64,000 nt of DNA, from IMG/VR virus record IMGVR_UViG_3300045988_149624; one strand, 5' to 3'. The notes below the pieces were generated by a model. It had not been told where the DNA came from. It did no database searches and saw nothing but the letters and a program-made list of their open reading frames with translations. Each line of letters begins with the position of its first letter. Position 1 is the stretch's first letter. The stretch comes from a virus. A program made the translations under genes and the position numbers. This document shows, in pieces, positions 3,254 to 49,101 of this stretch.

Positions 3254-3637
3254 ATGAAAAAATGGCTTAAAAAAGAATTTTTTATTTTTATAATATTTGG
3301 TATATCTTATTTTACATTAGAAATTCTTTATAGAGGATATTCGCATTGGACTATGATATTTTTAGGTGGAATAGTAAGCGTTCTTATAGGATTAATTAAT
3401 GAAATAACTCCAAATATGAGAATGTGGAAACAAATGCTTTTAGGAACAATACTTATTACTGTTTTTGAATTTATACTTGGATATATTCTGAATATAAAAT
3501 TAGGATTAGGGATATGGGATTATTCTAATATCCCTTTTAACATTATGGGACAAATATGTTTGCCGTTTTCTTTTTTATGGTTTGTATTATCTTATTTTAT
3601 AATTATGTTAGATGATATATTAAAGGAAACATTTTAA
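3254..3637 (+). CDS. Small polytopic membrane protein (resembles the PF06541 'putative ABC-transporter type IV' family)
   Basis: ATG abuts the lysin stop (TAAATG). About four hydrophobic helices. Motif GIWDYSNIPFN..GQICLPFSFLW. Confidence 0.6.
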   Translation: MKKWLKKEFFIFIIFGISYFTLEILYRGYSHWTMIFLGGIVSVLIGLINEITPNMRMWKQMLLGTILITVFEFILGYILNIKLGLGIWDYSNIPFNIMGQICLPFSFLWFVLSYFIIMLDDILKETF

Positions 3638-3694
3638 ACATATCAAATATAATATAAATTAACAAGGTATTTTAAGAAAAAGGAGATGGTCAAG

Positions 3695-4186
3695 ATGGCA
3701 ATATTTGTAGGCGTTGGAAGAACAGATGAGTGTTCTAACAGTAAAAAAGAAGAAAAAGAAAAAAAATGGAAACTTTTATCGGAAATTAAATTAACAGCGA
3801 ATAATCCAAAAATACTTATAAAACAAGATGCAGAAGGAAATGGATTTAGCTGTGAAAGAATAATAATTATTGGTAAAATTGTTTCTAACACAACAAGTAA
3901 ACCTATGTGTAAAATAAATAATACTATGGAATTTTCAGGAGTAAATTCGACTTATGTGAATGGGACTAGATATATTTATGAGACATATGAAGACAAAGGT
4001 TTTTTTATAGAAAGAGACACCAAATATCTTACTCAAGACATACTTGAAAGTTCAGTCTTATTTGATAATGGATTCTTTAGGGTAGTTAAAGGTCAAGCTA
4101 ATGGTATAAAATCTATTGAATTATATGGAGATTCACCTTCTTTTGTATTTAAAGCAGGAACAGAGTTGGAAATTTATGGATTCTAA
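3695..4186 (+). CDS. Hypothetical tail/baseplate-module protein
   Basis: Start moved to the second ATG, which has AAGGAG 9 nt upstream. The N-terminus MAIF matches the next two structural ORFs. Confidence 0.6.
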   Translation: MAIFVGVGRTDECSNSKKEEKEKKWKLLSEIKLTANNPKILIKQDAEGNGFSCERIIIIGKIVSNTTSKPMCKINNTMEFSGVNSTYVNGTRYIYETYEDKGFFIERDTKYLTQDILESSVLFDNGFFRVVKGQANGIKSIELYGDSPSFVFKAGTELEIYGF

Positions 4187-4502
4187 TACATATACAATAT
4201 CTTTGGAATTAGTATTTTCATGTATAGCCATGATAATAGGAGTTGGGTCATTTTTAGCTTCTAGAAGTAAAGAAAGTGACAAAATTGGAAGAGAACGAGC
4301 GACTGTTGAAGTTAAATTAGATTATATAGCCCAATCATTAGATGATTTAAAAGCTCAAATAAATGAATCAAGAGAAGAAGATGAAAGAAATAAAAACAAA
4401 ATATCCGAAATGGAAAAGATAATGCTTAAACATTCAATGAGATTAAATACAATAGAAAATGAATTAAATATTGACTATAAAGAATTTAAAGAAGATGAAT
4501 AA
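4176..4502 (+). CDS. Membrane-anchored coiled-coil protein
   Basis: The in-frame ATG at 4176 overlaps the upstream stop. One N-terminal TM (LELVFSCIAMIIGVGSFLA) is followed by a charged helical region and then a terminator. Confidence 0.5.
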   Translation: MDSNTYTISLELVFSCIAMIIGVGSFLASRSKESDKIGRERATVEVKLDYIAQSLDDLKAQINESREEDERNKNKISEMEKIMLKHSMRLNTIENELNIDYKEFKEDE

Positions 4503-4506
4503 TATG

Positions 4507-4535
4507 ACGAGGGGTTTCCCCTCGTTATTTTTTTT
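4507..4535 (+). terminator. Rho-independent terminator
   Basis: ACGAGGGG-TTT-CCCCTCGT stem followed by a T-run. Confidence 0.8.
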
Positions 4536-4553
4536 ATAAGGAGGTGATTTCGT

Positions 4554-4976
4554 ATGGCAATATTTTATGACTATACGATAACCGTAGATGGAGATAAAGC
4601 TAAATTAGATAAAAATATATATTTATACAAAAATAATAAAAATATAACTTATTATTTTAAGATACAAAATGCTCCCTTTAAATTTATTAATGCAGTAGAT
4701 ATGGTAGAAAGCTTAAATGCTTCTACGGCAGATATAAAAATATTAAAGCCTAACGGAGTAAAGAAAAGAATAAAAAATATTCCTATTGAAAATGGGAAAG
4801 TAAAATTAGAAATAGATGATAGTTTTATGGATGAGATATCTGAAATAGGCAAATATACTTTTCAAATAGATTTATATGATAACGCTACAAATAAAGGTAG
4901 GGTAACAATACCTCCTGTTATAGAACAATTTTGTGTACTTGCACCTATCTTTGAAGATAATGAAGCGACAGAATAG
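4554..4976 (+). CDS. Baseplate/tail-fibre module protein, short paralog of the next gene
   Basis: AAGGAGGTGA RBS. Its ~135 aa align along the N-terminus of ORF 4987 (MAIFYDYTITVDGDKAKLDKNIYLY vs MAIFYNYTITVNGNKASMDKNIYLY; FQIDLYD..ITIPP shared). Confidence 0.75.
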   Translation: MAIFYDYTITVDGDKAKLDKNIYLYKNNKNITYYFKIQNAPFKFINAVDMVESLNASTADIKILKPNGVKKRIKNIPIENGKVKLEIDDSFMDEISEIGKYTFQIDLYDNATNKGRVTIPPVIEQFCVLAPIFEDNEATE

Positions 4977-4986
4977 GTGATATTGT

Positions 4987-6153
4987 ATGGCTATTTTTTA
5001 TAATTATACAATAACAGTTAATGGTAATAAAGCTAGTATGGATAAAAACATTTATTTATACAGAAAAAATAAAAATGTAGATTATTATTTTGAAATTAAA
5101 AATGCTTGTTTTAAATTTGAAGATGAAATCAATTATATAATTAGTTATAACGCTAAATATGCTAGATTCAGAGTTATAAAACCCGATGGAACAAAATTTT
5201 TTACAGAAAAAAGAGAAGTAGAAAACGGATATGCAAAATTTTCTGTCACAGAAGACTTAATAGATGAAAGAGCAGAGGTTGGTACATACGTTTTTCAAAT
5301 AGACTTATATGACGGAAGCAATGGATTTATTACTATACCTCCTATCTATAATCAATTTCATGTTTTAGAACCATTATTTGACGAAGACGAATCAGGAGCA
5401 GGACAAGTAGACATATCTAGCGTAGATGTAGCGTACATAGGAGATACACTAGAGAAGGTTACAATTTTTGATGAAAACGGTGTATATGTTAAAACGTTTT
5501 GGAAACCAAAAGAGATAATTTCGTCTGTAAGAATGAATAAAATAGAAGAAGGAATATATTCTTTAAGTCAAAAAGTCGCAGATTTAACATTCAAACCGAT
5601 ATCTATTACTTCCTTTAAGAGTAATTTATCTAAAACAGTATATGAAAAAAATATAGAAACTATAAATAGTTGCAAGTTTACATGGAGTACAAGTATGATT
5701 CCAAAATCAATTAGTCTAACCGATTGTACTGTTGAGACTAGCGATACAAGTTATACATACAATAAGACAATTTCAGACACAAAGACCTTTACACTATCGG
5801 TGACTGATAGTAAAAATAATGTAAGAAGTTCTAGTATTACTTTTACATTTGTTTATCCTTTTTATTATGGAACATTTACCAACTCACTAACAGAAGCAGA
5901 TATAAAAAATGAAGTTAAATTAGTTGAATTAAAAAACAACAAAACATTAACTTTAACATATAATGACATGAAAGTTTTTTATGCTTATCCCAAGGCTTAT
6001 GGAGAATTAAAAAGTATAAAAGATGGAAATGGGTTTGAATATTTAAACGACTTTAATAAAGAAGAGATGAATATTAATAGTATTCCTTATTATGTTTATA
6101 AAATAAAAAATAAAGCAAGTGTATCTCAAATAAAATATACATTTAGCTTTTAG
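4987..6153 (+). CDS. Baseplate/tail-fibre module protein (long paralog)
   Basis: Good RBS. The N-terminal domain is shared with 4554..4976 and is followed by a unique ~250-aa C-terminal part. Confidence 0.75.
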   Translation: MAIFYNYTITVNGNKASMDKNIYLYRKNKNVDYYFEIKNACFKFEDEINYIISYNAKYARFRVIKPDGTKFFTEKREVENGYAKFSVTEDLIDERAEVGTYVFQIDLYDGSNGFITIPPIYNQFHVLEPLFDEDESGAGQVDISSVDVAYIGDTLEKVTIFDENGVYVKTFWKPKEIISSVRMNKIEEGIYSLSQKVADLTFKPISITSFKSNLSKTVYEKNIETINSCKFTWSTSMIPKSISLTDCTVETSDTSYTYNKTISDTKTFTLSVTDSKNNVRSSSITFTFVYPFYYGTFTNSLTEADIKNEVKLVELKNNKTLTLTYNDMKVFYAYPKAYGELKSIKDGNGFEYLNDFNKEEMNINSIPYYVYKIKNKASVSQIKYTFSF

Positions 6154-6168
6154 AAAGGAGAGATATAA

Positions 6169-6744
6169 ATGATTATTGGTAGCAATTTTGATTTGTCTTC
6201 AAGGTTATATTTAGACTCGAGACAGTTATGTGATAGTTATGCAGACCTTATAGAGAACAAAAATAATATCTTATATCCTCCCGGATTTGAAGTTTATTGT
6301 TTTAAGGAAAAAACAAAGTATTATAATGCTTGTGAAAATATAGAAGATAAACCAGTATGGAAAGAAGCAGCACGAGGTAGTATTGCAGAAGTTTTTATAG
6401 AAAGTGATACTATTCCGGAGAATAAAGACCTTTATTGGATTGATACAGGAACAGTAGATACTTTAGGGAATCAATCTGCTCACGAAGGAATAATTAAAGA
6501 GCTTTTAGAAACAGTTAGAAATCTTCAAAAAAGAATATTAGTTTTAGAAGAGAAAGTTGGCTCAGGAATAATTTCTCCAACAACAGGAGACTATTTACAA
6601 TTAGCAGATGGAACAAATTTACAATTAGCAGACGGAACATTTTTAGAACTATCTTCAGGAGATTCTTCGAGTAAAAAATATTTACAATTAGCAGATGGAA
6701 CATTCTTAGAATTAGCAAATAATACTTTCTTAGAAATAAATTAG
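6169..6744 (+). CDS. Tail-fibre-like protein with C-terminal LQLADGT(F/N)L(E/Q)L repeats
   Basis: AAAGGAGAG RBS. The peptide repeat YLQLADGTNLQLADGTFLEL...YLQLADGTFLELANNTFLEI is encoded by DNA repeats at 6595, 6619 and 6682. Confidence 0.7.
   Translation: MIIGSNFDLSSRLYLDSRQLCDSYADLIENKNNILYPPGFEVYCFKEKTKYYNACENIEDKPVWKEAARGSIAEVFIESDTIPENKDLYWIDTGTVDTLGNQSAHEGIIKELLETVRNLQKRILVLEEKVGSGIISPTTGDYLQLADGTNLQLADGTFLELSSGDSSSKKYLQLADGTFLELANNTFLEIN
6595..6702 (+). repeat. Three copies of TTACAATTAGCAGA(T/C)GGAACA inside the CDS
   Basis: Copies read directly at 6595..6615, 6619..6639 and 6682..6702. Confidence 0.9.
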
Positions 6745-6754
6745 AGGTGATAAG

Positions 6755-8671
6755 ATGACTAAATTTAATGAACTTAATAAAACTATTGTCATTAATGACA
6801 CAGACTATTTATTGTTGGGAACAAATTTAGATAGTGGATTTGAAAATAAAATAGCTAGTATAGAAACTTTAAAAAAAGCATTATTAGGAGATACTTCTAA
6901 TCAATATTTAAACTTATTATCTTCTGACGGGAAGAAAGAATTTAGATTAACATTAGATGGAAATGGTAAAATGCATATTTTTCCTATAGAAGCTTATACT
7001 AGCACTCCTTATACAGAAGGACAGAATTTAGAATCCCCTTTAAAAATAGTTCCAAGTAATAAAATAGATTCGGAAAACAATAGTGGCTTAGTTATTCAAC
7101 AAATATACGGCGGTGGTTCATTAACCACAAAAGAAACAGCAGTAAGTCATAATTTTGTTGAGTTATATAATTGTAATACCGTTGATATAAATTTAAATGG
7201 TTTATATCTTTGGTATAAACCTAATGGTGGAAGTTGGAGTTCTTTAGCTTTAAGAGGAATAGTCCCTGCCGGACATTCTTTTTTAATTAGGGGTAATGCA
7301 CTTTATAATATAAATAGTGATATAGTTAGATGTAAAATAACAGAGTATGACCAAGAATGGAATATATCTTTTTCGGAAAATGGATTCACAATATATTTAT
7401 GTGTAGGAGAAAAAGAACCCGAGGCAACGCCAGTTAAATATATAAAAAATGAATTAGGAGCAATAACATCTACTGACCAAAGATGGGTTGATATGCTTGG
7501 TGGTGGCGGAGCAGAAGATTCTCACACTATCGCAGTATATGAAGGCGGATATTATAATATGGGAATGAGTAGATATTGTTCTTTAAGAAGAATGAATTTT
7601 AATAATGGTAAAAATAATAGAGACGATGCAAGTATTATAGATTATCAAACTTGTGAAGTTGAAAAATTTAGACCAAGAAGTTTAGCAGACGGATATTGGA
7701 ACTCAAGTGCAGAAACAATACAATTTAATAAATATAGTCCTTCAATGGTTAATATGTGTTATGGGGAAAATGGTGATACTTCAAGAACTTTTACTTTTGA
7801 AACTCCAGTAACAGATTATGATGGAATTATTAAATACAGAAAACAAGGAGAAACAAAGTGGATAAAGAAAAAAACAACTAAAGATATTGTAAATCTTTAT
7901 GACCAAGTAGTTAATATTCATAGAGTAATTATACATGATTTAACTTATGGAACTTACGAATATCAACTAGGCGTAGAAGGTATGCTTACAGATATAGAAA
8001 CATTTGAAATAAAACAATATAACCAATCTAATAGCTTAAAGATGCTATGGACTACTGATGAACAGGGATTTACAGAATATGAATACAATGCAGTAAGAAC
8101 AGCCCGTGATGCTATTGAGCATTATGAATATTCAAATAGCACTCCTAATTTTGATTGTCATTTAAACACAGGCGATATTTCACAAAATGCAAACAGACCA
8201 CAGGAATGGCGATACTATTATAAATATCATGAAAATAATCTTAAAACTATGCCACATATACTTAATTGCGGAAATAACGATTTAATAGATAAAAAATTTG
8301 GTACAGCTTTTGAATATTACGGCACTTTTGAAAATCAACCATTACTAAATACCTATGAACCTCATACAGAAGGAGAAAGAGCAGTTCCAATGGTTTCTAG
8401 TTATAGCTTTGATGTTGGTTTTGTACATTTTGTAGTGATTAATTCTAATACAGAATATATGTACCCAGAAGTAAATACAGATGAATTTTTAAGAAAACAA
8501 ATAGAATTCTTAGATGATGATTTAACTAAGGTTGAAGCAAGAGCGACTAAACCTAGATGGGTAGTTGTTACTTGTCATTTAAGTCCTTTTACAATAGTTA
8601 GAACTAAGAGATTACAACAATGGATTCCTTATATAGAAAAACATAAAGTGGATTTTGTATTATGCGGGTAA
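6755..8671 (+). CDS. Tail protein with lamin-tail domain and calcineurin-like metallophosphoesterase domain, exon 1 (the stop codon belongs to the intron)
   Basis: LTD-like SHNFVELYNCNTVDINLNGLYLWY. MPE motifs GDISQNANR, CGNNDL and VVVTCHLSP. The ORF stops right after VDFVLCG, in the middle of the expected GHxH motif. Confidence 0.8.
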   Translation: MTKFNELNKTIVINDTDYLLLGTNLDSGFENKIASIETLKKALLGDTSNQYLNLLSSDGKKEFRLTLDGNGKMHIFPIEAYTSTPYTEGQNLESPLKIVPSNKIDSENNSGLVIQQIYGGGSLTTKETAVSHNFVELYNCNTVDINLNGLYLWYKPNGGSWSSLALRGIVPAGHSFLIRGNALYNINSDIVRCKITEYDQEWNISFSENGFTIYLCVGEKEPEATPVKYIKNELGAITSTDQRWVDMLGGGGAEDSHTIAVYEGGYYNMGMSRYCSLRRMNFNNGKNNRDDASIIDYQTCEVEKFRPRSLADGYWNSSAETIQFNKYSPSMVNMCYGENGDTSRTFTFETPVTDYDGIIKYRKQGETKWIKKKTTKDIVNLYDQVVNIHRVIIHDLTYGTYEYQLGVEGMLTDIETFEIKQYNQSNSLKMLWTTDEQGFTEYEYNAVRTARDAIEHYEYSNSTPNFDCHLNTGDISQNANRPQEWRYYYKYHENNLKTMPHILNCGNNDLIDKKFGTAFEYYGTFENQPLLNTYEPHTEGERAVPMVSSYSFDVGFVHFVVINSNTEYMYPEVNTDEFLRKQIEFLDDDLTKVEARATKPRWVVVTCHLSPFTIVRTKRLQQWIPYIEKHKVDFVLCG

Positions 8672-10173
8672 TGTTGCCCTAGTTATCGAGTAATCGGTTT
8701 CAAAAAATTACAAATTTAATTGCAGGTAATTCCTAAAGCCTTACACCACAATAACCCTGAAAAGAGGTTATGAAGGTACGAAAGTAGAAAAAACGTAAGG
8801 ATAAGTATATGGTTAAACCCTAAGTACTTGGATATAATGATAATAAGTAAGTTATATCAAAATGGATGTTCATGCAGGTAAGATTCTAAATTTATTTATT
8901 TAAGCTCGAATAATTTTACGAGGTGAGTAAAATAGGAAAAAAATTAAATTATAATAACGTAAAAGAATATATAAATTCTCATGGTTATATATTATTAGAT
9001 AATGAATATATCAATATACATAAAAAAATGAAAATCAAATGCCCAGAAGGACATATTTTTGAAATGTCTTTTAATAATTTTAAGAAAGGACAAAGATGTT
9101 CGATTTGTTCCTTAAATAAACAATATAAATATACATATTCTCAAATTAAAAATATTTGTAAAAATAACAACTTGATACTTTTAAATGAAAAGAAAAATTT
9201 AAATATGCGAGATATAATTAAATTTAAAAACGAAAAAGGAAATATCGAACAAGTAACACTATACACTTTTGAAAGAAGATACATCAATACAAATAAATCA
9301 GCATCAAAATCAAAATATTCTAATAAAAAACATTCTCAAGAATATATACAATCTTTGGTAAAAAAAAGAGGGTATAAGTTGTTAGAGCCATATAAAAATA
9401 AAAAAACTAAATTAAAATTGCAATGCCCTAATGGTCACTATCACGAGATTCGTTTAGATAGTTTTATAAAAGGGAGTGGATGCAAACAATGTATGATTGA
9501 GAATATGACTAACGATGTAAAAGATGTGATTACAAATCTTCAAAAAAAAGGATTTCATTTATTATCTAAATATAAAAATAATCAAGAAAAAATTGTTTTA
9601 CAATGTGAAAAAGGACATATATTTAACGCCACCTACGATAATGTAGTTAATAACAATAGTGGATGCCCTGTTTGTAATGAAAGCAAAGGAGAAAAGAATA
9701 TAAGAAAAATATTAAAAAAATATAATATTAAATATATTCCTCAATATAAATTTGATAATTGTAAATTCTATAAATGTTTGCCTTTTGATTTTTATTTGCC
9801 TGATTATAATTGTTGTATTGAATATGACGGAATACAACATTATAAAATAATAAAGCATTTTGGAGGCTATGAAACATTTATAGATAGAAAAATAAGAGAC
9901 ACAGTTAAAACCAAATTCTGTGTAGACAACAATATTAAAATAATAAGAATTTCTTATTTGGAATTTAATGATATTGAAAAAATATTAAAAAATGAGCTTA
10001 AAATAAAAGAATAAGAATAAACTTCAAAGACTATCTCGCAAGAGAGTACGACAAAGTATGTCGGATAAGGTTTGCCCCTATATAGGGTGAAGAAATAGTC
10101 TAATATCCTAATGAAAGTTAGGGCGAGAGAAATTCTCGATTTATGAAGTAACGTTCATAAAAACAATATAATG
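8669..10173 (+). mobile_element. Group I intron (boundaries +/- a few nt) carrying a homing-endonuclease ORF
   Basis: P1-like pairing GGGU(8666-8669)/GCCC(8676-8679) with U.G at the exon end. GNRA-capped hairpins at 8685-8698 (GUAA) and 10034-10045 (GCAA). AGACUAU(10028-10034)/AUAGUCU(10095-10101) pairing and a hairpin at 10124-10138. G10173 lies directly before the exon-2 codons CAC AAC CAT. Confidence 0.7.
8923..10014 (+). CDS. Intron-encoded homing endonuclease candidate: three zinc-ribbon modules plus a C-terminal Vsr/PD-(D/E)XK-like nuclease domain
   Basis: GTG start. Three repeats of GY.LL..Y.N...K...C(P/E).GH....F..G..C..C. C-terminal motif LPFDFYLP..CIEYDGIQH...RD..K. Confidence 0.65.
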   Translation: MSKIGKKLNYNNVKEYINSHGYILLDNEYINIHKKMKIKCPEGHIFEMSFNNFKKGQRCSICSLNKQYKYTYSQIKNICKNNNLILLNEKKNLNMRDIIKFKNEKGNIEQVTLYTFERRYINTNKSASKSKYSNKKHSQEYIQSLVKKRGYKLLEPYKNKKTKLKLQCPNGHYHEIRLDSFIKGSGCKQCMIENMTNDVKDVITNLQKKGFHLLSKYKNNQEKIVLQCEKGHIFNATYDNVVNNNSGCPVCNESKGEKNIRKILKKYNIKYIPQYKFDNCKFYKCLPFDFYLPDYNCCIEYDGIQHYKIIKHFGGYETFIDRKIRDTVKTKFCVDNNIKIIRISYLEFNDIEKILKNELKIKE

Positions 10174-10710
10174 CACAACCATACATACAGTAGAAGTATT
10201 CCACTATACACAGGATATAAAGGAGCGACATATGATTCTTCTACTAGAAAGTTCACACTTGCACCATATAACAATTATGTAGATGTTGTATCTACTGGTT
10301 CTACTCAATTAAAAATAGTAGATGAAAGTATAACAAGAACAGCTAATAAGGCTGATGGAACGTATTATATAATGTGTCAAGCGACAGGCTATAAGCAAAA
10401 GGGTAAGGAAAAAGCTATTAATTTACCTAGTGGACAAAATTTATTAAAAACTGAAAATCCAAGCTCTATACATGACAATGGTAATGGTCAACCTTGGTGG
10501 TATGCTTATACAGGTACTCTGCCAGTACAACCAACATACATTATGGTGGACTTTGGATATGATAAAGTCACATTTAATATGTATTATATTAAAGATGTAC
10601 TTACTAAAGATTTAGAAGAAAAAATTACAGTAAATGATTTTGACCCTACTAAGAATGAAAGAGTTTTATTTGATACACTTACTGTTAATTATTCAGACAG
10701 AAATAAATAA
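10171..10710 (+). CDS. Metallophosphoesterase tail protein, exon 2
   Basis: Begins (M)HNHTYSRS, which completes VDFVLCG|HNH = GHxH. The ATG at 10171 is probably intron sequence rather than a real start. Confidence 0.7.
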   Translation: MHNHTYSRSIPLYTGYKGATYDSSTRKFTLAPYNNYVDVVSTGSTQLKIVDESITRTANKADGTYYIMCQATGYKQKGKEKAINLPSGQNLLKTENPSSIHDNGNGQPWWYAYTGTLPVQPTYIMVDFGYDKVTFNMYYIKDVLTKDLEEKITVNDFDPTKNERVLFDTLTVNYSDRNK

Positions 10711-40673: not shown

Positions 40674-42824
40674 TTATAAATGTTTAACTCTATTTAATAT
40701 ATCCAATACTCTTCCCTTAGTCCATTGATTTTCTCCAAGATAGCCACAAGTTCTTCTTACAACAGAAAGTTTATTTTGATTGCTATTATGACATTGAGGA
40801 CACACCCATATATCGTTATCTAAATCATACTCCATAACTCCCCTATAATGGCACTCTCCACAAACATCAGATTCAAAATTTACTTCTGCATATATATTAT
40901 GAAGATACATAAAATCAACTAATTGCTCTAATGCTTTTGGATTTTTGCTCATATTATAAGTTTCTACATATGACACAACTCCACCTAATGAATGGTCTTG
41001 TAGAGTTCCTTCTAATTCTAGTTTGCTAAAGGCATCAATTTCTTCCCTAACATCTACATGATAAGAATTTGTAATAAAACCTTTATCTGTTATATCTTTT
41101 ATTTCTCCGAACTGTTGTTTAATTTTATTAGCGAATAATCCACCTGTTGATTCTTGAGGACTTCCATATAAAGCAAATAATAAGCCTGTTTCCTCTTTCC
41201 ATTCTTTTACTTTGTTTTCTAAATGTTTCATTATTTCTAATGCTAATACATATCCTTTATATGTTGTATGTGATTCCCCTGTAAGATATTTAACTGTTTC
41301 ATATATTCCACTATATCCTAAAGATACTGTAAAATTTTTCTTTATAGTTGGAAGAACTTCATCTTCAGGATTTAATCTTGCAAATACTCCATGTTGCCAC
41401 AAGATAGGAGCGACACTTGCTTTAACCCCTTTAAACTTATCATATCTTAATATACCCATTCTTTTACATAAGTCTAATTTTTCATCTAATATTTTCCAAA
41501 ATTCATCTATATCTCCATTGGAAAGTATAGCTATATAAGGTAAATTTATTGTTTGGACTCCAACATTACCTCTACCATAAAAGAAAGGTTTTCCTTTTTC
41601 ATCAAATATAGGAGATAAGAAGGAGCGACATCCCATGCATGGAAAGGCATATCCGTATTTTTCTTTCATTTTTTTTACAGAAATATAATCCGGAGCCATT
41701 CTTAAAGATGTAGATTTAATTGCTAATTGTTTTAAATAATAATATTCAGAAGTAGGGTACATATTATCTTCATCTAAAAAGAATAATAATTTAGGGAAAG
41801 TGGGTGTGCTTTTAACCCCAAATTCATTTTCCATTCCTTCTATTCTTTGATTTAAAAATTCTTCAATTAACATAGCAGTTTCTTTTTTATATTCAGGGTT
41901 TTCATCTAAATACATACAAAGAGATATAAATGGAGACTGTCCATTAGTGGAATTCATTGTAGATATTTGATAATTAAATGTCTGTACGCTATCTTTGATT
42001 TCTTTTTTTAATCTTTTTTCTACTATTTTATTAATTTCATCATCAGATAAAACTTTATGTATTAAATTCATTTCTTCTAAAAGTTCTTCTTTTATTTTTT
42101 TTTCACTTACTCTAACATAAGGTGCTAAATGGGATAAACTCATTGTTTGCCCTCCATAAGTGAAAGAACTTATCTGTGTAGCTATTTGTGTTGCTAACGT
42201 ACTAGCAGTTCTTAGAGATTTCGGAGTTCTTATTAGCTTTTTATTTATTACTGTTCCTTCTTCAAACATCTTATCTAATGGTACAAGTTCGCAATTTGAG
42301 ATATTTTGTACATAATAATCCAAATCATGTATATGAATGACACCTTCATCATGTGCCTTTACTATATCTTGAGGTATCATTTGTGTTTTTGCTATATACT
42401 TACTTATTTCACCTGCAATTAAATCTCTTTGAGTACTAACTATTTGCCCTTGTTTATTAGAGTTTTCTGTTAAAACCTCTTTATTAGAATAATCTATTAA
42501 ACCTAAAACACTTTTATCTAATGGATGTTGATTTCTAATTCTGTTTCTCTCTGCTCTGTAAAGTATATAGGCTTTTGCAGTATTCTTTAATCCTCTTTCC
42601 ATAAGTTTAAATTCAACTAAATCCTGTATATCTTCTATTCCTATATATTCATCATCAATTTCTTCACAAACATCATCTGCTACCAATTTTGATAAAGCCA
42701 CTATTTGTGAGTTTTTACATTCCTTTGTCTCAACTAATGCTTTTCTTATAGCTACCTCAATTTTTTCTTTATCAAATTCTTCAATAGAACCATTTCTTTT
42801 AATCACAAACATTGATAATTTCAT
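40674..42824 (-). CDS. nrdD: Anaerobic (class III) ribonucleoside-triphosphate reductase
   Basis: ATP-cone VIKRNGSIEEFDKEKI. C-terminal CGEC..CPQC zinc ribbon. Glycyl-radical motif RRTCGYLG. The start is uncertain (42824 or 42812). Confidence 0.85.
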   Translation of the reverse strand: MKLSMFVIKRNGSIEEFDKEKIEVAIRKALVETKECKNSQIVALSKLVADDVCEEIDDEYIGIEDIQDLVEFKLMERGLKNTAKAYILYRAERNRIRNQHPLDKSVLGLIDYSNKEVLTENSNKQGQIVSTQRDLIAGEISKYIAKTQMIPQDIVKAHDEGVIHIHDLDYYVQNISNCELVPLDKMFEEGTVINKKLIRTPKSLRTASTLATQIATQISSFTYGGQTMSLSHLAPYVRVSEKKIKEELLEEMNLIHKVLSDDEINKIVEKRLKKEIKDSVQTFNYQISTMNSTNGQSPFISLCMYLDENPEYKKETAMLIEEFLNQRIEGMENEFGVKSTPTFPKLLFFLDEDNMYPTSEYYYLKQLAIKSTSLRMAPDYISVKKMKEKYGYAFPCMGCRSFLSPIFDEKGKPFFYGRGNVGVQTINLPYIAILSNGDIDEFWKILDEKLDLCKRMGILRYDKFKGVKASVAPILWQHGVFARLNPEDEVLPTIKKNFTVSLGYSGIYETVKYLTGESHTTYKGYVLALEIMKHLENKVKEWKEETGLLFALYGSPQESTGGLFANKIKQQFGEIKDITDKGFITNSYHVDVREEIDAFSKLELEGTLQDHSLGGVVSYVETYNMSKNPKALEQLVDFMYLHNIYAEVNFESDVCGECHYRGVMEYDLDNDIWVCPQCHNSNQNKLSVVRRTCGYLGENQWTKGRVLDILNRVKHL

Positions 42825-42849
42825 TTCCTTTCTACTTATTTTATTTATT

Positions 42850-43116
42850 TTAGCCTTCATATTTCTCCACCAATTCATCGAAGTCCCTCTCTAAAATGTC
42901 ATAATTTCCTTTTAACTCGTCATAATCTTCTTTCAGTCTATCATAATTCCATTTTAAGTCATCATACCTTTCCTCCAATTCACCATGTACTTCTTCTAAA
43001 GATTGCATTTCATAACTTAAATCTATATAGTCTTTCTCCATCTCTTTGTATTCGTCTAATTCAATATATAGCTCATTAAGTTTTTCTAATAGCTGCTCTC
43101 TTGATAATCCGTTCAT
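42850..43116 (-). CDS. Highly acidic coiled-coil protein (88 aa)
   Basis: First gene after promoter P4. Repeats of the YD(D/E)LK type. Roughly a third of residues are D/E. Confidence 0.6.
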   Translation of the reverse strand: MNGLSREQLLEKLNELYIELDEYKEMEKDYIDLSYEMQSLEEVHGELEERYDDLKWNYDRLKEDYDELKGNYDILERDFDELVEKYEG

Positions 43117-46035: not shown

Positions 46036-49000
46036 TTATGCTACTTCAAAATCTGTAATATAATAATCAACAATATTGTTTTTCTTTCTTTTCTTAGGGA
46101 TAAACCCATATAAATATAACACCTCTCCCATTACAAATGGGCATTGGTTATATAATTGCTTATCCATTTTAAATATTTTTGCATTTCCACTATAGAAACA
46201 AAACAATTCAACTTCAATATTATATTTAAAGATTTTTAAATCAGATATAAAACAAGCATTTTTATCCATTTGTTTATAAGCTACTTTGTTAAATCCACCT
46301 GTATATTCTATTTCGTTTTTTATTAATTCTATAACATCATCTTCTACATCTTCTAAAGATAATTCTACATCTCTTATGAATGAATGATAGTCCATATTTA
46401 AGACTTTGGCAGTCTCTTTAGTTGCATTTCTTTCTGCTAATTCCTTATAAGTCATATATAATTCAATATCTTTAGTTTTAGACATTGTTTTTTTATTACC
46501 TTTATCTTTATATAATTCAAATACTTTAAGAAGTTTGCTTATACAACCAAATTCAGAAAAATATCCTAATTTAATTAAAATTTCAAGACATCTATTACCT
46601 ATTTCTTTAGTATCAAATAATACATCTGTAAAGGTTTCGTATTTTTTACTTTGACTTAATTCATATAATATATTAGCTTTTTGTCCATTTAGATATTTAA
46701 TAGAGCCGACACCTTTATATATTGTATTAGTTTCTTTATTGAAGAAATATTCTGCTTTAGAATACCCAAATTTAGGAGATTGTAATTTAATACCAAGTAA
46801 CTTTGCTAATTTTTCTCCATTAACAAAGTCTTCATTATTGGCTGCATTATTTAAGTAGGCACAAGTAAACTCTAGTGGATAATAATATCTTAAATAAGCA
46901 CAGTAATATCCTATCATAGAATACCCTGTAGCATGATTTTTACCAAATTGATAGTTGGCTGAATCTTCTATTATTTGTAAAAATTCTTGTGCTTCTTTTT
47001 CAGCTACATCTCTTGGTTTATTTGATTTAGAACAATATCCTTCTAATATTTGTGGCATAGCTTTTTCTAGTCTATCTCTTTGTTTTCTTCCTATCGCCCT
47101 TCTTATATTATCTGCATCTGACCCACTTAAACCACATATATCTTGAAGAAACGCTATGGTGTCTTCTTGAAAAACAAGATATCCATTATTTTGTTTTAAT
47201 AAATTATCTATGATTTCAGATGGGTTTTTGTTAGGAATTCCTGCAATTAAATTATCTCTATAACTTTCACCACTAGGACGAAGACTTGCATTAACTAGAT
47301 TCATGTCATTTATTCTATGAGGATTAAATTGTCTTAATAATTTATTAGCATAATCACTTTCAAATTGAAATATACCATAGGGATATTTAACCATGTCTTC
47401 CCATACATTATCATCATTAAAATCTATATTATATGACTTAGGATATGGAATATTTGCATATTCACAGCAATCTTTTATTATTCCAATATTTTTTAATCCT
47501 AAAATATCATATTTTACTAAAGATACTTCATGAACTTCTTCCATGTCAATTTGTAATATCTTCATTCCGTCCTTCCAAAACGTACCATAATTATCTGTCA
47601 AGGTTACTGGACTTGCTACAATACCCGCAGGATGAACTGATTGAGATACAACTGAATTTAAAATTCCATCAAAGTAATAAAATAACTCACTATATTTCAA
47701 CCTTGTTTCTTCGGGATTTTCTTCATATTCTTCTTTTATTATCTTTACTTGGTCTAAAGAATATGGAGATTCTAAACCCTTGTCTTTATATTTTTTATCT
47801 AAGGCTCTGCCTATATCATCTATTGTCCCTTTATCTGATACAGTTCCTATAGATAATATATATGCCGTTTTCTCTTGTCCAAATCTGTTAATTATATAAT
47901 TATAAACAAGCTCCCTTTGATCAGGTGAGAAATCTACATCTATATCCCCAATTTCTAACCTATCTTCATTTGCAAATCTTGAGAATATAGTTCCCCATCT
48001 AATTGGGTCAACATCTGTAATACCTATTATATAAGCTAATGTACTTCCTCCGACCGACCCTCTGCAAGGGCAAGTCGGGATATTATTTTTTTCACACCAC
48101 TCCATCATTTCGCTCATAAACAACATAAATGATATCATATTAAGTTTTTTAAATACTCTTAATTCTTCTTTTAAATTTTCCTTATACTTTTCATTGTTTC
48201 CATCAATTATTCCTCTATCTACTTTATCTTTATACATTTTTTCAATTCTATCTATCAAAGTTTTTTCATCATCTTTACTAAGTATAGGATATTTAAAAGA
48301 TGTATCTAGCTTAATTTCTTCACACATATCTGCTATTTTATTAGTATTTTCTATCGCTTCTAATACTACATCCATAGGTAAACAATTTTGTTCTTTAAAC
48401 ATTTTTACTAATTCTTCATAGCTTTTAAATGTTAAATCAAAAGTGTCTTCATTAGAAAATGTTATATTTTTAGATAATTGTCTAATATATCTGCATTCAG
48501 CTTTATATTCATTTATACTATGTGTATCTGTTCCTACTATAAGAGGCTTGTTGTATTTTTTTGATAATTTATATAGTTTTCTATTAAATTCTTTTTGTTC
48601 TTCACAATTATGATATTGTATTTCAAAAAAGTCATAATGTTTTGCTAACTTATCATAATATGGGTTACCTTCGTCAAGTTTCTGTAAAGGACTCGCCAAA
48701 CAGGCTGATGTTTTTATTATATTATCAGATATATTTAAAAATTCATCAAATGAGATTCTATTTTTATAATATACATGAGAAGGATGAGTTGATAAGTCTA
48801 ATAAAGTATGCAATTCTTTTAATCCTTCTTGATTTTTTGCTAATAATACAGTGTGGTAATTATCTCTTATTTTTTCATCTAGCGTTTCAGTTAAATATAC
48901 TTCGCACCCATGAATATATTTAATTCCTTTTTCTTTACAATATAAAAACCTTTCTATCCATTTATAAACATTTCCGTGATTAGTACAAGCAATAGCCTTC

Positions 49001-49101
49001 ATATTATATTCAACTGCCTTATCAACATATTCTTTAAAGTCTGTTACGCTATCTAATAAAGATAATTGGTCGTGTATATGATATGGAACATAATTATTCA
49101 T
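46036..49101 (-). CDS. dnaE: DNA polymerase III alpha-type replicative polymerase (PHP plus Pol IIIA core)
   Basis: YVPYHIHDQLSLLDS (PHP). RGSVGGSTLAYIIGITDVDP. IGDIDVDF. GIFQFES. Confidence 0.85.
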   Translation of the reverse strand: MNNYVPYHIHDQLSLLDSVTDFKEYVDKAVEYNMKAIACTNHGNVYKWIERFLYCKEKGIKYIHGCEVYLTETLDEKIRDNYHTVLLAKNQEGLKELHTLLDLSTHPSHVYYKNRISFDEFLNISDNIIKTSACLASPLQKLDEGNPYYDKLAKHYDFFEIQYHNCEEQKEFNRKLYKLSKKYNKPLIVGTDTHSINEYKAECRYIRQLSKNITFSNEDTFDLTFKSYEELVKMFKEQNCLPMDVVLEAIENTNKIADMCEEIKLDTSFKYPILSKDDEKTLIDRIEKMYKDKVDRGIIDGNNEKYKENLKEELRVFKKLNMISFMLFMSEMMEWCEKNNIPTCPCRGSVGGSTLAYIIGITDVDPIRWGTIFSRFANEDRLEIGDIDVDFSPDQRELVYNYIINRFGQEKTAYILSIGTVSDKGTIDDIGRALDKKYKDKGLESPYSLDQVKIIKEEYEENPEETRLKYSELFYYFDGILNSVVSQSVHPAGIVASPVTLTDNYGTFWKDGMKILQIDMEEVHEVSLVKYDILGLKNIGIIKDCCEYANIPYPKSYNIDFNDDNVWEDMVKYPYGIFQFESDYANKLLRQFNPHRINDMNLVNASLRPSGESYRDNLIAGIPNKNPSEIIDNLLKQNNGYLVFQEDTIAFLQDICGLSGSDADNIRRAIGRKQRDRLEKAMPQILEGYCSKSNKPRDVAEKEAQEFLQIIEDSANYQFGKNHATGYSMIGYYCAYLRYYYPLEFTCAYLNNAANNEDFVNGEKLAKLLGIKLQSPKFGYSKAEYFFNKETNTIYKGVGSIKYLNGQKANILYELSQSKKYETFTDVLFDTKEIGNRCLEILIKLGYFSEFGCISKLLKVFELYKDKGNKKTMSKTKDIELYMTYKELAERNATKETAKVLNMDYHSFIRDVELSLEDVEDDVIELIKNEIEYTGGFNKVAYKQMDKNACFISDLKIFKYNIEVELFCFYSGNAKIFKMDKQLYNQCPFVMGEVLYLYGFIPKKRKKNNIVDYYITDFEVA

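What the first reader, a model, noticed from the sequence alone, without database searches (positions are those of the whole stretch)
8660..10180. Group I intron interrupts the GHxH catalytic motif of a metallophosphoesterase tail protein
ORF 6755 ends ...KHKVDFVLCG-TAA and ORF 10171 begins (M)HNHTYSRS. Joining them gives VDFVLCGHNHTYSR, the GHxH motif of calcineurin-like phosphoesterases. The earlier motifs (GD..R, GNND, CH) are all in exon 1. The 1.5-kb gap has group I hallmarks: GGGU/GCCC P1 with a U.G pair, an in-frame stop right after the exon, GNRA-capped hairpins, a 7-bp long-range pairing (10028/10095), a free-standing endonuclease ORF, and a G directly before exon 2. One caveat is read from the sequence: splicing after U8669 and after G10173 would shift the frame. 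In-frame options are G8668 joined to C10174 (restores GHNH), or U8669 joined to U10154 after G10153 (inserts FHKNNIM). I cannot choose between them. Introns in structural or tail genes are less common than in nucleotide-metabolism or polymerase genes.
Basis: partly seen in the sequence, partly recalled or inferred. Interest (0 to 1): 0.65.

Follow-up and report, generated by a model that had tools for sequence, protein, structure and literature searches.

The report
Self-splicing intron in phage tail gene
A 1.5-kb mobile group I intron carrying its own homing endonuclease gene splits a phage tail-module phosphoesterase gene inside its last catalytic motif, which is an ordinary kind of element, but the exon it must be cut from ends in G rather than the near-universal U.

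Summary
ORF 6755-8671 (…VDFVLCG-stop) and ORF 10171-10710 (M-HNHTYSRS…) are two halves of one 816-aa metallophosphoesterase. A 98%-identical intron-less allele reads TGTGGG|CACAAT, so the insertion is exactly 8669-10173 (1505 nt).

It is a group I intron of IA2-like architecture. Its 363-aa endonuclease ORF sits in the P6a loop and has three CapR-type zinc fingers and a Vsr-like nuclease domain. Rfam misses the window copy because of that ORF. ORF-less relatives pass RF00028's gathering score, including one at the same site of the homologous gene (53.4 bits) and one with the identical P1 (54 bits). On six relatives, 96% of cells pair, against 32-46% for slid controls, and 22 pairs show compensatory changes.

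The "hallmark" U8669·G8676 pair is therefore intronic (+1), and the cleavage-site pair is G8668-C8677. At the same site relatives have U-A. Related introns follow G, C or A, in four cases confirmed against intron-less alleles. This suggests a phage intron clade that dispenses with the U·G wobble, though no splicing was observed.

The gene is an intron hot spot, with up to four introns, one at each metal-ligand motif.

The parts
6755..8668 (+). Exon 1 of the metallophosphoesterase gene (638 codons). It contains an LTD-like domain, a purple-acid-phosphatase N-terminal-like domain, and Metallophos motifs up to ...VLCG.
   Evidence: ORF list; Pfam; DNA alignment with intron-less alleles L001-L004.
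8669..10173 (+). Group I intron, 1505 nt. It starts UAAUG (an in-frame stop UAA at 8669-71) and ends ...UAAUG, with the terminal guanosine (omega-G) at 10173.
   Evidence: Exact insertion relative to the 98%-identical intron-less allele. This is the only junction that restores CGHNH and leaves an intron-terminal G. The intron is identical in independent contig L007.
8666..8679 (+). P1 hairpin. G8666-C8679, G8667-C8678 and G8668-C8677 are the exon pairs, with G8668-C8677 being the -1 pair. U8669.G8676 is the +1, intronic pair. The loop is AAUGUU. The internal guide sequence is UGCCC 8675-79.
   Evidence: Sequence. The -1 pair covaries G-C to U-A in L131/L017/L133. The identical P1 occurs in the tape-measure intron of L127, whose intron-less allele is L132.
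8685..8698 (+). P2 hairpin AUCGA-GUAA-UCGGU.
   Evidence: Three of five pairs show compensatory changes (helix 2).
8711..8717 (+). P3 5' strand CAAAUUU. It pairs with 10068-10074 across the ORF.
   Evidence: 100% paired; two pairs have changes on both sides (helix 3).
8721..8876 (+). P4 (UGCAGG 8721-26 / UC(A)UGCA 8870-76), enclosing J4/5 UAA, P5 (8731-33/8864-66) and a P5 extension. The extension comprises P5a 8739-44/8795-800, P5b 8751-71, P5c 8777-86, a receptor hairpin 8803-29 and P5e 8831-58.
   Evidence: helices 4-11; the MFE fold recovers them; aligns to the P4/P5 positions of RF00028 in relatives.
8807..8825 (+). Conserved 19-mer AUAUGGUUAAACCCUAAGU, a hairpin holding the UAUGG/CCUAAG halves of an 11-nt GAAA-tetraloop receptor.
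   Evidence: Exact matches in at least 120 viral-contig stretches. Its identity as a receptor is my reading of the sequence (inference).
8877..8886 (+). P6 (GG 8877-78 / CU 10022-23) and the P6a 5' strand (AUUC 8883-86 / GAAU 10015-18). The ORF lies in the P6a loop.
   Evidence: Alignment with ORF-less relatives, helices 12-13 (invariant).
8923..10014 (+). Homing-endonuclease ORF (363 aa if it starts at GTG 8923). The Shine-Dalgarno GAGGTGA at 8920-26 points instead to ATA 8932. It has three CapR/DUF4379 zinc-finger modules and a C-terminal Vsr-like nuclease domain.
   Evidence: Pfam. PHROG 559 at 4.8e-73, plus 'homing endonuclease' and 'intron encoded nuclease' families. Invariant E300, D302, G303, H306, D326, K329. 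AF2 pLDDT 89. Foldseek: Vsr 1cw0_A prob 1.00, 1vsr 0.98, 3hrl 0.92.
10015..10034 (+). P6a and P6 3' strands, J6/7, and the P7 5' strand (R-like element CUUCAAAGACUAU).
   Evidence: Matches the RF00028 consensus UUCAaAGACUA as aligned in relatives.
10034..10063 (+). P7.1 (UCUC-GCAA-GAGA 10034-45) and P7.2 (CGAC...GUCG 10049-63), the IA-type insertions between P7 and P3'.
   Evidence: P7.1 has 3 of 4 pairs compensatory (helix 15).
10068..10074 (+). P3 3' strand AGGUUUG.
   Evidence: helix 3.
10076..10101 (+). P8 (CCCU-AUAU-AGGG 10076-87), J8/7, and the P7 3' strand (S-like element GAAGAAAUAGUCU 10089-101).
   Evidence: matches the RF00028 consensus AAGAUAUAGUC.
10107..10161 (+). P9 (10107-22, loop UGAAAG), P9.1 (10124-38) and P9.2 (10140-61). 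G10153 lies in the P9.2 loop.
   Evidence: Compensatory changes between the window and L009-B/L131-B (helices 18-21); MFE fold.
10174..10710 (+). Exon 2 (178 codons plus stop), starting CAC AAC CAT = HNH.
   Evidence: dN/dS is 0.17 between the window and L009, both intron-containing, and 0.19 between the two intron-less alleles L001 and L003.

Best explanation
Window 8669-10173 is a mobile group I intron of IA2-like architecture: P1-P9.2, with P7.1/P7.2 and an extended P5. It sits in the metallophosphoesterase gene of the tail/baseplate module of an uncultivated ~146-kb phage of a low-GC anaerobe. Its closest cultured relatives are large Clostridioides phages.

The intron lies between the Gly and His codons of the GHxH metal-ligand motif. 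The pre-mRNA folds into the ribozyme. The 5' exon end GGG pairs with the guide sequence CCC (8677-79). Guanosine-initiated splicing joins G8668 to C10174 and releases the intron after its terminal G10173. This restores ...VLCG-HNH... and an 816-aa protein. These splicing steps are inferred, not observed.

The 363-aa protein encoded in the P6a loop is a homing endonuclease. It has three CapR-type zinc-finger DNA-binding modules and a Vsr-like nuclease domain. It presumably cuts intron-less alleles near TGTGGG^CACAAT and spreads the intron by double-strand-break repair (inferred).

One property is unusual. The cleavage-site (-1) base pair is a Watson-Crick G-C, not the near-universal U.G wobble. 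The adjacent U8669.G8676 pair is intronic, and G8676 is positioned to pair with C10174 in P10.
For: **Shown here**

1. *Intron-less alleles.* Alleles with the same synteny exist (P0001 at 98%, P0002 at 73%, P0003 at 57%; loci L001-L006) and define the insertion to the nucleotide.
2. *Uniqueness of the junction.* G8668^C10174 is the only junction that restores CGHNH and ends the intron in G.
3. *Rfam on relatives.* RF00028 passes its gathering score on ORF-less relatives. L133 8891-9225 is at the same site of the homologous gene (53.4 bits, E 1.6e-11). L127 1815-2154 has the identical P1 (54 bits). Twenty-four further hits fall in loci sharing the intron's 19-mer or its 5'-half sequence.
4. *Base pairing.* The named structure of 95 pairs is 96.2% paired on six sequences, against 32-46% when slid. 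Twenty-two pairs carry both-side changes, against 0-5 when slid, and 0/500 shuffles reach this. P3, which spans the ORF, is included.
5. *Thermodynamics.* The MFE of the ORF-deleted intron recovers most helices, with z = -3.6.
6. *Endonuclease.* PHROG 559 and homing-endonuclease families match. The fold is Vsr-like. PHROG 559 proteins are intron-encoded in Bacillus phage terminase introns and carry a VSR signature (PMC11878797).
7. *Selection on exon 2.* dN/dS is 0.17 between two intron-bearing lineages.
8. *No independent start for exon 2.* ATG10171 lacks the Shine-Dalgarno that neighbouring genes have.
9. *Non-U at -1 recurs.* At the same site L131/L017/L133 read GGU|CAAGUUGACC, a U-A pair that compensates for the window's G-C. 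Intron-less alleles confirm G at -1 for the tape-measure intron with the same P1 (L127 vs L132), C at -1 for L132 vs L127, and G or A for the site-A introns.
Against: - No RNA data: splicing, its exact junction and self-splicing are all inferred.
- Rfam finds nothing in the window itself, at gathering or at E <= 10. I attribute this to the 1.1-kb ORF in P6a.
- A G-C pair at the cleavage site contradicts the rule that virtually all group I introns follow a U in a U-G pair (PMC2504315). A perfectly canonical-looking U.G sits one nucleotide downstream. A ribozyme that obeyed the rule would leave an extra U and shift the frame.
- The insertion begins with TAA and ends with ATG exactly in frame, which would also allow a two-polypeptide reading.
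- The endonuclease ORF has no ATG at the position its Shine-Dalgarno predicts (ATA 8932), so its expression is uncertain.
Confidence: 0.85

Rival explanations
1. The ribozyme obeys the canonical rule. It cleaves after U8669 (the U.G pair) and ligates to C10174, giving ...UGC GGG UCA CAA..., an mRNA shifted by one nucleotide. The full-length protein is then either lost (a truncated phosphoesterase ending ...CGSQPYIQ*) or rescued by a +1 ribosomal slip on GGG-U.
For: The GGGU/GCCC helix with U8669.G8676 looks exactly like a canonical P1. Canonical relatives in the same contigs all place the exon's last U in such a pair. GGG-U could in principle allow tRNA-Gly to re-pair on GGU (inference).
Against: - Exon 2 is under purifying selection in intron-bearing lineages (dN/dS 0.17).
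- The same one-nucleotide offset occurs at site A (GGAG|U...), where no simple slip can restore GD.
- It also occurs in a tape-measure gene.
- At the same site, L131/L133 have U-A at -1 and C-G at +1, with no wobble at all, yet a clean in-frame junction.
Confidence: 0.06
2. There is no splicing. The insertion behaves as a gene cassette that splits the enzyme into two separately translated chains. Exon 1 terminates at TAA 8669, exon 2 starts at ATG 10171, and the two chains reassemble non-covalently.
For: An in-frame TAA immediately follows the Gly codon, and an in-frame ATG immediately precedes the His codon. The same TAATG...TAATG ends occur in L009-B.
Against: - There is no Shine-Dalgarno before ATG10171, whereas the flanking genes have GAGGTGA-type sites.
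- About 410 nt of non-coding flanks keep a group I fold with compensatory changes.
- ORF-less copies of the intron interrupt the same site (L133).
- Sister introns at sites A and C, and in the tape-measure gene, offer no start codon for the downstream part.
Confidence: 0.05
3. The intron is a decaying, splicing-dead relic, and the phosphoesterase gene is a pseudogene in this phage.
For: The -1 pair is non-canonical. The endonuclease lacks an obvious ATG start. Many more database sequences belong to the intron-less allele's cluster (695 members) than the four contigs found carrying the window's exon-1 protein.
Against: - Both exons and the endonuclease ORF are intact.
- The intron sequence is identical or >=98% identical in several independent assemblies (L007, L008, L098, L136).
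- The structure is maintained by compensatory changes across 76-93% identical copies.
- Exon 2 dN/dS is 0.17.
Confidence: 0.03
4. The 3' splice site is after G10153 and the 5' site after U8669.
For: It is in frame, it uses the U.G pair, and it follows a G.
Against: - Every full-length homologue whose junction was read (L001-L004, and L010) has G immediately followed by H-N-H, with no insert.
- G10153 is the last loop nucleotide of hairpin P9.2, which is conserved with compensatory changes.
- All relatives end with a 9-12-nt tail after P9.2.
Confidence: 0.01

Closest known systems
Phage T4 td intron and other IA2 phage group I introns (T4 nrdB/nrdD, SPO1 DNA polymerase, Twort); comparison from my own knowledge of those introns
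   Same: Both are group I ribozymes with P7.1/P7.2 between P7 and P3'. Both carry the endonuclease ORF looped out of P6a. Both start with UAA, giving an immediate in-frame stop, have a short P1 of the GGGU/GCC type and a terminal G, and sit inside a conserved catalytic motif of the host protein.
   Different: The host gene belongs to a tail/baseplate module, not nucleotide metabolism. The exon ends in G paired to C, instead of U paired to G. J4/5-J5/4 reads UAA/UGU instead of the A-rich loop. The endonuclease is Vsr-like with CapR zinc fingers rather than GIY-YIG or HNH.
Introns in terminase genes of Bastillevirinae Bacillus phages that encode PHROG 559 proteins (PMC11878797)
   Same: The endonuclease family is the same: the window ORF hits PHROG 559 at 4.8e-73. 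That paper reports PHROG 559 as intron-encoded with a VSR endonuclease signature. Both are IA-type phage introns with the nuclease in a loop that splits the ribozyme and defeats covariance models.
   Different: The host gene (terminase vs phosphoesterase), the phage lineage and the host organism all differ. Whether those introns also follow a non-U nucleotide was not stated in the text I read.
Staphylococcus phage Twort orf142 (three introns in a tail-tube gene) and Cluster J mycobacteriophage introns in capsid and tail genes (PMC11878797 discussion; PMC3706429)
   Same: These are self-splicing introns in phage virion-structural genes, with several introns in one short gene.
   Different: The gene and intron lineage differ. 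Here up to four introns sit one at each metal-ligand motif of an enzyme domain (L017/L133), and the window copy carries only the last.
[quoted passage not shown]
   Same: The C-terminal ~110 aa of the intron protein superposes on Vsr (1cw0_A prob 1.00, TM 0.54 of target; 1vsr) and on the DUF559-like 3hrl (TM 0.64). It has an invariant E-x-D-G-x-x-H...D-x-x-K signature.
   Different: Sequence similarity to Pfam DUF559 is not significant (E 0.085), and there is no PDB sequence match. The N-terminal three CapR/DUF4379 zinc-finger repeats are not part of Vsr. Cleavage activity and target were not tested.

Membership tests
Group I catalytic intron (Rfam RF00028) | Covariance-model match at or above the gathering score (50 bits) | tested here: inconclusive
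   The window itself gives no hit, at gathering or at E<=10. A 1.1-kb ORF splits the core. Natural ORF-less copies do pass: L133 8891-9225, at the same gene site and ~76% identical to the window intron, scores 53.4 bits; L127 1815-2154, with the identical P1, scores 54 bits.
Group I catalytic intron (Rfam RF00028) | Conserved core helices P3-P8, including the P3/P7 pseudoknot and the P/Q/R/S-type sequence elements | tested here: met
   AAUUGCAGG (P-like), UCAUGCAGG (Q-like), UUCAAAGACUA (R) and GAAGAAAUAGUCU (S) are present. 96.2% of cells are paired, with 22 compensatory pairs, against 0-5 in slid controls. The intron aligns column by column with Rfam-validated relatives.
Group I catalytic intron (Rfam RF00028) | Intron ends in a guanosine (omega-G) directly before exon 2 | tested here: met
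   G10173 is that residue. It belongs to the only junction compatible with the intron-less allele.
Group I catalytic intron (Rfam RF00028) | 5' exon ends in U, paired with G of the internal guide (near-universal, PMC2504315) | tested here: not met
   Exon 1 ends in G8668, paired with C8677, and the U.G pair is at +1. Relatives show the same departure: U-A in L131/L133, G in L127 (intron-less L132), C in L132 (intron-less L127), and G/A at site A.
Group I catalytic intron (Rfam RF00028) | Guanosine-dependent self-splicing | not testable with these tools
   This needs an in-vitro transcript with GTP/Mg2+, or cDNA from infected cells.
Subgroup IA2 (Michel-Westhof classes; criteria from memory) | Extra hairpins P7.1 and P7.2 between P7 and P3', peripheral P9.1/P9.2, and an ORF commonly in P6a | tested here: met
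   P7.1 is at 10034-45 and P7.2 at 10049-63, both with covariation. P9.1 and P9.2 are present, and the ORF is in the P6a loop. No subgroup-specific models were available, so the assignment is by architecture only.
Homing endonuclease with a Vsr-like (PD-(D/E)XK-related) nuclease domain, PHROG 559 | Profile match to the family and a Vsr-like fold with conserved acidic/His residues | tested here: met
   PHROG 559 matches at 4.8e-73. E300, D302, H306, D326 and K329 are invariant in 35 sequences. The AF2 model has pLDDT 89. Foldseek finds Vsr at prob 1.00/0.98. Literature: PMC11878797, Table 2.
Homing endonuclease with a Vsr-like (PD-(D/E)XK-related) nuclease domain, PHROG 559 | Site-specific cleavage of the intron-less allele and intron homing | not testable with these tools
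   Only indirect evidence exists. Intron-plus and intron-minus alleles coexist at 97% nt identity, and ORF-containing and ORF-less copies occur at the same site.
Calcineurin-like metallophosphoesterase (Pfam PF00149), host gene | Ordered metal-ligand motifs D / GD / GN(H) / H / GHxH | tested here: met
   Pfam Metallophos scores 25.6 bits (cut-off 21.5) on exon 1 alone. The motifs are TTD, TGD, CGNND, VTCH and, after joining, CGHNH. Motif III is GNND rather than GNHD/E throughout the family.

The most novel reading that the evidence does not exclude
The window intron may belong to a sizeable clade of phage group I introns that has given up the U.G wobble as the 5' splice-site determinant.

- **Size of the clade.** It accounts for 27 of 61 distinct 5' halves recovered from viral contigs. 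It is recognisable by J4/5 = UAA and a J5/4 that lacks the usual adenosines.
- **What replaces the wobble.** The last exon nucleotide can be G, C, A or U. It is Watson-Crick paired to the guide sequence. The next guide nucleotide pairs alternately with intron +1 (in P1) and exon-2 +1 (in P10).
- **Consequence.** Such introns would not be restricted to sites after U. That could explain how the same ribozymes colonise GGG^CA and GGAG^ sites in unrelated genes, namely the phosphoesterase and the tape-measure gene.
- **Caveat.** One intron type with a canonical A-rich J4/5 (L127-2) shows the same offset, so the link to J4/5 is imperfect.
Probability: 0.45. Interest if true: 0.7.

Novelty: new variant of a known kind. 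Interest (0 to 1): 0.5.

Why it matters
**As an annotation.** Two ORFs, an "orphan" endonuclease and 400 nt of "intergenic" DNA become one 816-aa tail-module enzyme. The case also shows why covariance-model scans miss endonuclease-bearing phage introns.

**As biology.**
- A single 2.4-kb enzyme gene can be colonised at every one of its metal-ligand motifs, with up to four introns in related phages.
- The same ribozymes hop into a tape-measure gene at sites sharing only 3-5 nt.
- The splice site that the DNA comparisons force is not after a U.

If the non-U junction is confirmed by cDNA, this clade offers natural ribozymes that select their 5' splice site without the G.U wobble and its J4/5 receptor. 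That would bear on how group I introns choose and change target sites. It would also bear on designing trans-splicing or circularising ribozymes free of the "must follow U" constraint.

Tried and rejected
**Searches that found nothing**
- Rfam on the whole window (gathering) and on 8600-10260 (E<=10): no group I hit, only chance-level matches such as rseX, snoR29, manA-II and CRISPR-DR54. I attribute this to the ORF rather than to absence of a core.
- megablast of the gene against 50,697 phage records: no match. The best phage-database protein relatives are only 32% identical (Bacillus phage G gp352; crAss-like "phosphatase").
- PDB sequence search with the endonuclease: nothing. NCBIfam: nothing for either protein. 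Pfam on the C-terminal domain alone: DUF559 at E 0.085, not significant.
- Literature searches for natural group I introns without the U.G pair returned nothing relevant. Absence from this open-access library does not prove novelty.

**Analyses dropped or adjusted**
- A covariance model of the 3' half built from Rfam-validated relatives was prepared (alignment A3). I dropped it because P7.2 and P9 are too heterogeneous in a MAFFT alignment. The evidence from ORF-less orthologues made it unnecessary.
- MAFFT places the P1 of L131/L017 one column out of structural register. The -1 pair was therefore analysed by hand and by junction enumeration, not through the count of structure pairs.

**Readings rejected**
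- Group II intron or intein. There is no reverse-transcriptase ORF, stop codons lie in the exon frame, and the group I core is present.
- A sequencing error in the GGG run. The same GGG|UAAUG junction occurs in the 82%-identical L009, in L098/L136 and in a different gene.

Full report
**1. The observation**

ORF 6755-8671 ends ...KHKVDFVLCG followed by TAA. ORF 10171-10710 starts ATG CAC AAC CAT. Pfam's calcineurin-like phosphoesterase model matches residues 454-638 of the first ORF and runs out at profile position 186 of 191, immediately before the terminal GHxH motif. The first ORF also has weak LTD and purple-acid-phosphatase N-terminal matches.

I joined G8668 to C10174 and searched with the 816-aa product. 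The search returned 499 homologues (120 listed). Most of those listed are full-length proteins of about 740-880 aa.
- P0001 is 816 aa, 98% identical at 100% coverage.
- P0002 is 73% identical and P0003 is 57% identical.
- All three read ...(V/F)LCGHNHTYSRS... without interruption.

Their contigs share the window's gene order: a 388-aa ORF, a 191-aa ORF, the phosphoesterase, then a ~2,060-aa CotH-domain protein.

At the DNA level the intron-less allele reads GTATTATGTGGG|CACAATCATACA. The window reads GTATTATGCGGG[TAATGTT...ATATAATG]CACAACCATACA. The insertion is therefore 8669-10173, 1505 nt. Because G8668 and G10173 are the same base, it could equally be written 8668-10172.

**2. What the insertion is**

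*Rfam on the window.* Rfam finds nothing in the window. The insertion, however, contains a 1.1-kb ORF between two non-coding arms of 254 nt and 159 nt.

*Relatives in viral contigs.* A 19-mer from the 5' arm (8807-8825) has exact matches in at least 120 stretches of IMG/VR viral contigs. Scanning 20 of those loci with Rfam gave 21 RF00028 hits at 56-104 bits, all of them short ORF-less elements.

Two relatives are decisive.
- L127 1815-2154 is 80% identical to the window's 5' arm and has the identical start GGG|UAAUGUUGCCC. It scores 54 bits, with a gathering score of 50 and E 7e-11.
- L133 8891-9225 is an ORF-less intron at exactly the same Gly|His position of the homologous phosphoesterase gene. 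It scores 53.4 bits, E 1.6e-11.

*Structure.* The window's arms, with the ORF loop removed, align along their whole length with these validated introns. I read off the structure from that alignment and from the Rfam consensus lines; the coordinates are in the parts list. The helices are:
- P1 and P2 (GUAA loop)
- P3, which spans the ORF
- P4 with a bulged A
- P5, with an extension that includes a UAUGG/CCUAAG receptor-type hairpin
- P6 and P6a, with the ORF in the P6a loop
- P7, P7.1 (GCAA loop) and P7.2
- P8, P9 (GAAA in the loop), P9.1 and P9.2

*Test of the structure.* I counted pairs on six sequences: the window, L098, L009-B, L131-B, L017-B and L127-1.

| Measure | Named structure | Slid controls |
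|---|---|---|
| Cells paired | 96.2% | 32-46% |
| Pairs changed on both sides | 22 | 0-5 |

None of 500 shuffles reached the observed values for cells paired, both-side changes or the covariation score.

The minimum-free-energy fold of the ORF-deleted RNA recovers P2, P4, P5-P5e, P6a, P7, P7.2, P8, P9, P9.1 and P9.2, with z = -3.6. P7.1/P7.2, the ORF in P6a and the P9 periphery are the architecture of phage IA2 introns such as T4 td. That assignment rests on my knowledge of the classes; no subgroup models were available.

**3. The intron ORF**

- It has three CapR/DUF4379 treble-clef zinc-finger modules.
- Its best PHROG family is 559 (E 4.8e-73). It also hits families named "homing endonuclease" and "intron encoded nuclease".
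- It has 1,975 homologues at E<=1e-5. One source names a homologue "very-short-patch-repair endonuclease".
- An alignment of 35 sequences shows invariant E300, D302, G303, H306, D326 and K329.
- The AlphaFold model has a mean pLDDT of 89.
- Its C-terminal domain matches Vsr (1cw0_A, probability 1.00; 1vsr, 0.98) and a DUF559-like protein (3hrl).
- The Bastillevirinae intron survey lists PHROG 559 proteins as intron-encoded in terminase genes, with a VSR signature (PMC11878797).

Cleavage and homing were not tested.

**4. Where it splices**

I required only that the conserved peptide be restored and that the intron end in G. Exactly one junction remains: exon 1 ends at G8668 and exon 2 starts at C10174.

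It cuts after U8669 and after G10153 and inserts FHKNNIM. No homologue has such an insert. G10153 is also the last loop base of P9.2, a hairpin supported by compensatory changes.

Three further observations argue that exon 2 is expressed through splicing rather than translated on its own.
- The two intron-bearing lineages (window and L009) show dN/dS = 0.17 in exon 2. The two intron-less alleles L001 and L003 show 0.19.
- ATG10171 lacks the GAGGTGA-type Shine-Dalgarno of its neighbours.
- Sister introns at other sites provide no start codon.

**5. The unexpected part**

The helix GGGU/GCCC looks like a textbook P1 with its U.G wobble. The junction, however, puts U8669 inside the intron. The cleavage-site pair is G8668-C8677.

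[quoted passage not shown] The departure seen here is not an assembly error and not a one-off.

| Intron | Junction | -1 pair | How the boundary was set |
|---|---|---|---|
| L009-B (82%-identical gene), L098, L136 | GGG\|UAAUG | G-C | same junction as the window |
| L131, L017, L133, L134 (same site) | GGU\|CAAGUUGACC...AAUG\|CAC | U-A (+1 is C-G) | peptide plus terminal G; no wobble present |
| L127 tape-measure intron | GGG\|UAAUGUUGCCC...AAACG\|CAAAAA | G-C | intron-less L132 reads ACTGGA\|CAAAAACG |
| L132 tape-measure intron | GGC\|UAAAUUUAGCC...UUCG\|UAAAG | C-G | intron-less L127 reads AAAGCC\|AAAGAA |
| Site-A introns (L009-A, L017-A) | GGAG\|UAAC...GCUCC | G or A | U is intronic, given the intron-less alleles |
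| L135 | GGC\|AAAUGUUUGCC | C-G | reading frame plus terminal G only |
| L095 | GGCA\|AACAAAAUUGCC | A-U | reading frame plus terminal G only |

The L131-type junction (second row) is a compensatory replacement of the window's G-C by U-A at the structurally equivalent position.

Five of these seven intron types (all except the site-A introns) share a further feature. The guide nucleotide just 5' of the -1 partner can pair both with intron +1 and with exon-2 +1 (window U/C with G; L131 C/C; L132 U/U; L135 A/A; L095 A/A). This is the normal P1-to-P10 exchange, in register with the inferred junction.

By contrast, sister introns in the same genes are fully canonical. L010-C, L017-C, L017-I, L087 and L029 have an exon-terminal U in a U.G pair, a terminal G and an in-frame junction.

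I also surveyed 61 distinct intron 5' halves from the fetched loci.
- 27 share the window's P4/J4/5 type: J4/5 is UAA, and the P4 3' strand is preceded by UGU or AGU instead of UAA/CAA.
- Three of these (in L049, L090 and L135) have no U at all in the exon strand of P1.
- The ~18 with the usual A-rich J4/5 and J5/4 all show the exon-U.G pair.

In canonical ribozymes the J4/5 adenosines recognise the wobble pair; this is established knowledge, cited from memory. The co-variation of the two features is therefore suggestive. It is not perfect. The L127-2/L073-2 intron has an A-rich J4/5, yet it is in frame only with a junction before its U, given a terminal G.

All of this is inference from DNA. 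No splicing product was seen.

**6. Context**

The gene lies in a tail/baseplate module.
- Upstream is a >1,083-aa protein with SLT and NlpC/P60 domains, a tape-measure/tail-lysin type.
- Downstream is a 2,068-aa CotH-domain protein.
- In the relative L003 the neighbours carry YomV, YomW and BppU_N domains.

The contig holding the identical sequence is 146 kb. Its DNA polymerase III alpha is 45.6% identical to that of large Clostridioides phages. An anaerobic ribonucleotide reductase is present and G+C is 28%. "Tail protein" is thus an inference from synteny.

The phosphoesterase gene is an intron hot spot.
- L009 has two introns (sites A and B).
- L010 has one (site C).
- L017 and L133 have four: after TTD, after TG (before D), after CG (before NND) and after CG (before HNH).

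That places one intron at each metal-ligand motif. The window carries only the last.

No other intron was detected in the window by Rfam, by the 19-mer or by the R...S pattern.

**7. Verdict**

It is a new member of the phage group I intron family, in an unusual host gene, with a Vsr-type homing endonuclease.

What lifts it above routine is the inferred non-U 5' splice site. It is shared by a whole set of related phage introns and confirmed against intron-less alleles at four sites in two genes. I rate the element a new variant of a known kind, of moderate interest. The splice-site claim awaits a simple cDNA experiment.

Noticed in passing
window 8807-8825 (and 10112-10117): The most conserved stretch of the intron family, AUAUGGUUAAACCCUAAGU, is a hairpin carrying the UAUGG/CCUAAG halves of the classic 11-nt GAAA-tetraloop receptor. 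The P9 loop UGAAAG offers a GAAA. A likely L9-receptor tertiary contact follows. The 19-mer alone retrieves at least 120 viral-contig stretches.
   Followed up: partly
window 8920-8937: The endonuclease ORF has a strong Shine-Dalgarno (GAGGTGA 8920-26). The codon at the proper spacing is ATA (8932), as it is in L009-B, whereas relatives L073/L057 have ATG there. The GTG 8923 reported by the ORF finder lies inside the Shine-Dalgarno. The ORF may have a non-canonical or weak start.
   Followed up: partly
L017 (reverse strand, ~3460-6430) and L133 6468-9300: Homologous phosphoesterase genes carry four group I introns, one after each metal-ligand motif (TTD|, TG|D, CG|NND, CG|HNH). L009 has two and L010 has one. 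ORF-containing and ORF-less versions occupy the same sites.
   Followed up: partly
L127 (reverse strand 4507-5408), L073, L057, L132 2270-4400: Tape-measure-like genes of related phages hold up to three introns. Their P1/guide sequences are the same as those of the phosphoesterase introns (GGG|UAAUGUUGCCC; GGAG|UAAAUUAGCUCC). This suggests ectopic spread between unrelated genes at sites sharing only GGG^CA or GGAG.
   Followed up: partly
window 8669-8673 and 10169-10173: The pentamer TAATG is repeated at both ends of the intron. It supplies an in-frame TAA after exon 1 and an in-frame ATG before exon 2. The repeat is also in L009-B, but not in the L131-type intron at the same site.
   Followed up: no
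window 8664, 10179, 10188 vs L001: Against the 96.9%-identical intron-less allele there are three synonymous differences, at -4, +6 and +15 of the junction (about 0.9 expected in 30 nt). C10179 would extend a possible P10 (CAAC 10176-79 with GUUG 8673-76). The cause could be endonuclease-site divergence, co-conversion or a pairing constraint.
   Followed up: no
window 40674-42878, 46036-49101, 54581-56200 (minus strand): The classic intron and intein targets in this window show no intron by Rfam, the 19-mer or the R...S pattern. These are the anaerobic ribonucleotide reductase NrdD, DNA polymerase III alpha and a DnaB-like helicase. The only intron found in this 64 kb is in the tail-module gene.
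   Followed up: partly
window 8220-8240 (CGNND) and homologues: Motif III of the phosphoesterase is GNND rather than the usual GNHD/E in the window, L010 and L017. The general-acid histidine is replaced, so the enzyme's chemistry or substrate may be atypical.
   Followed up: no
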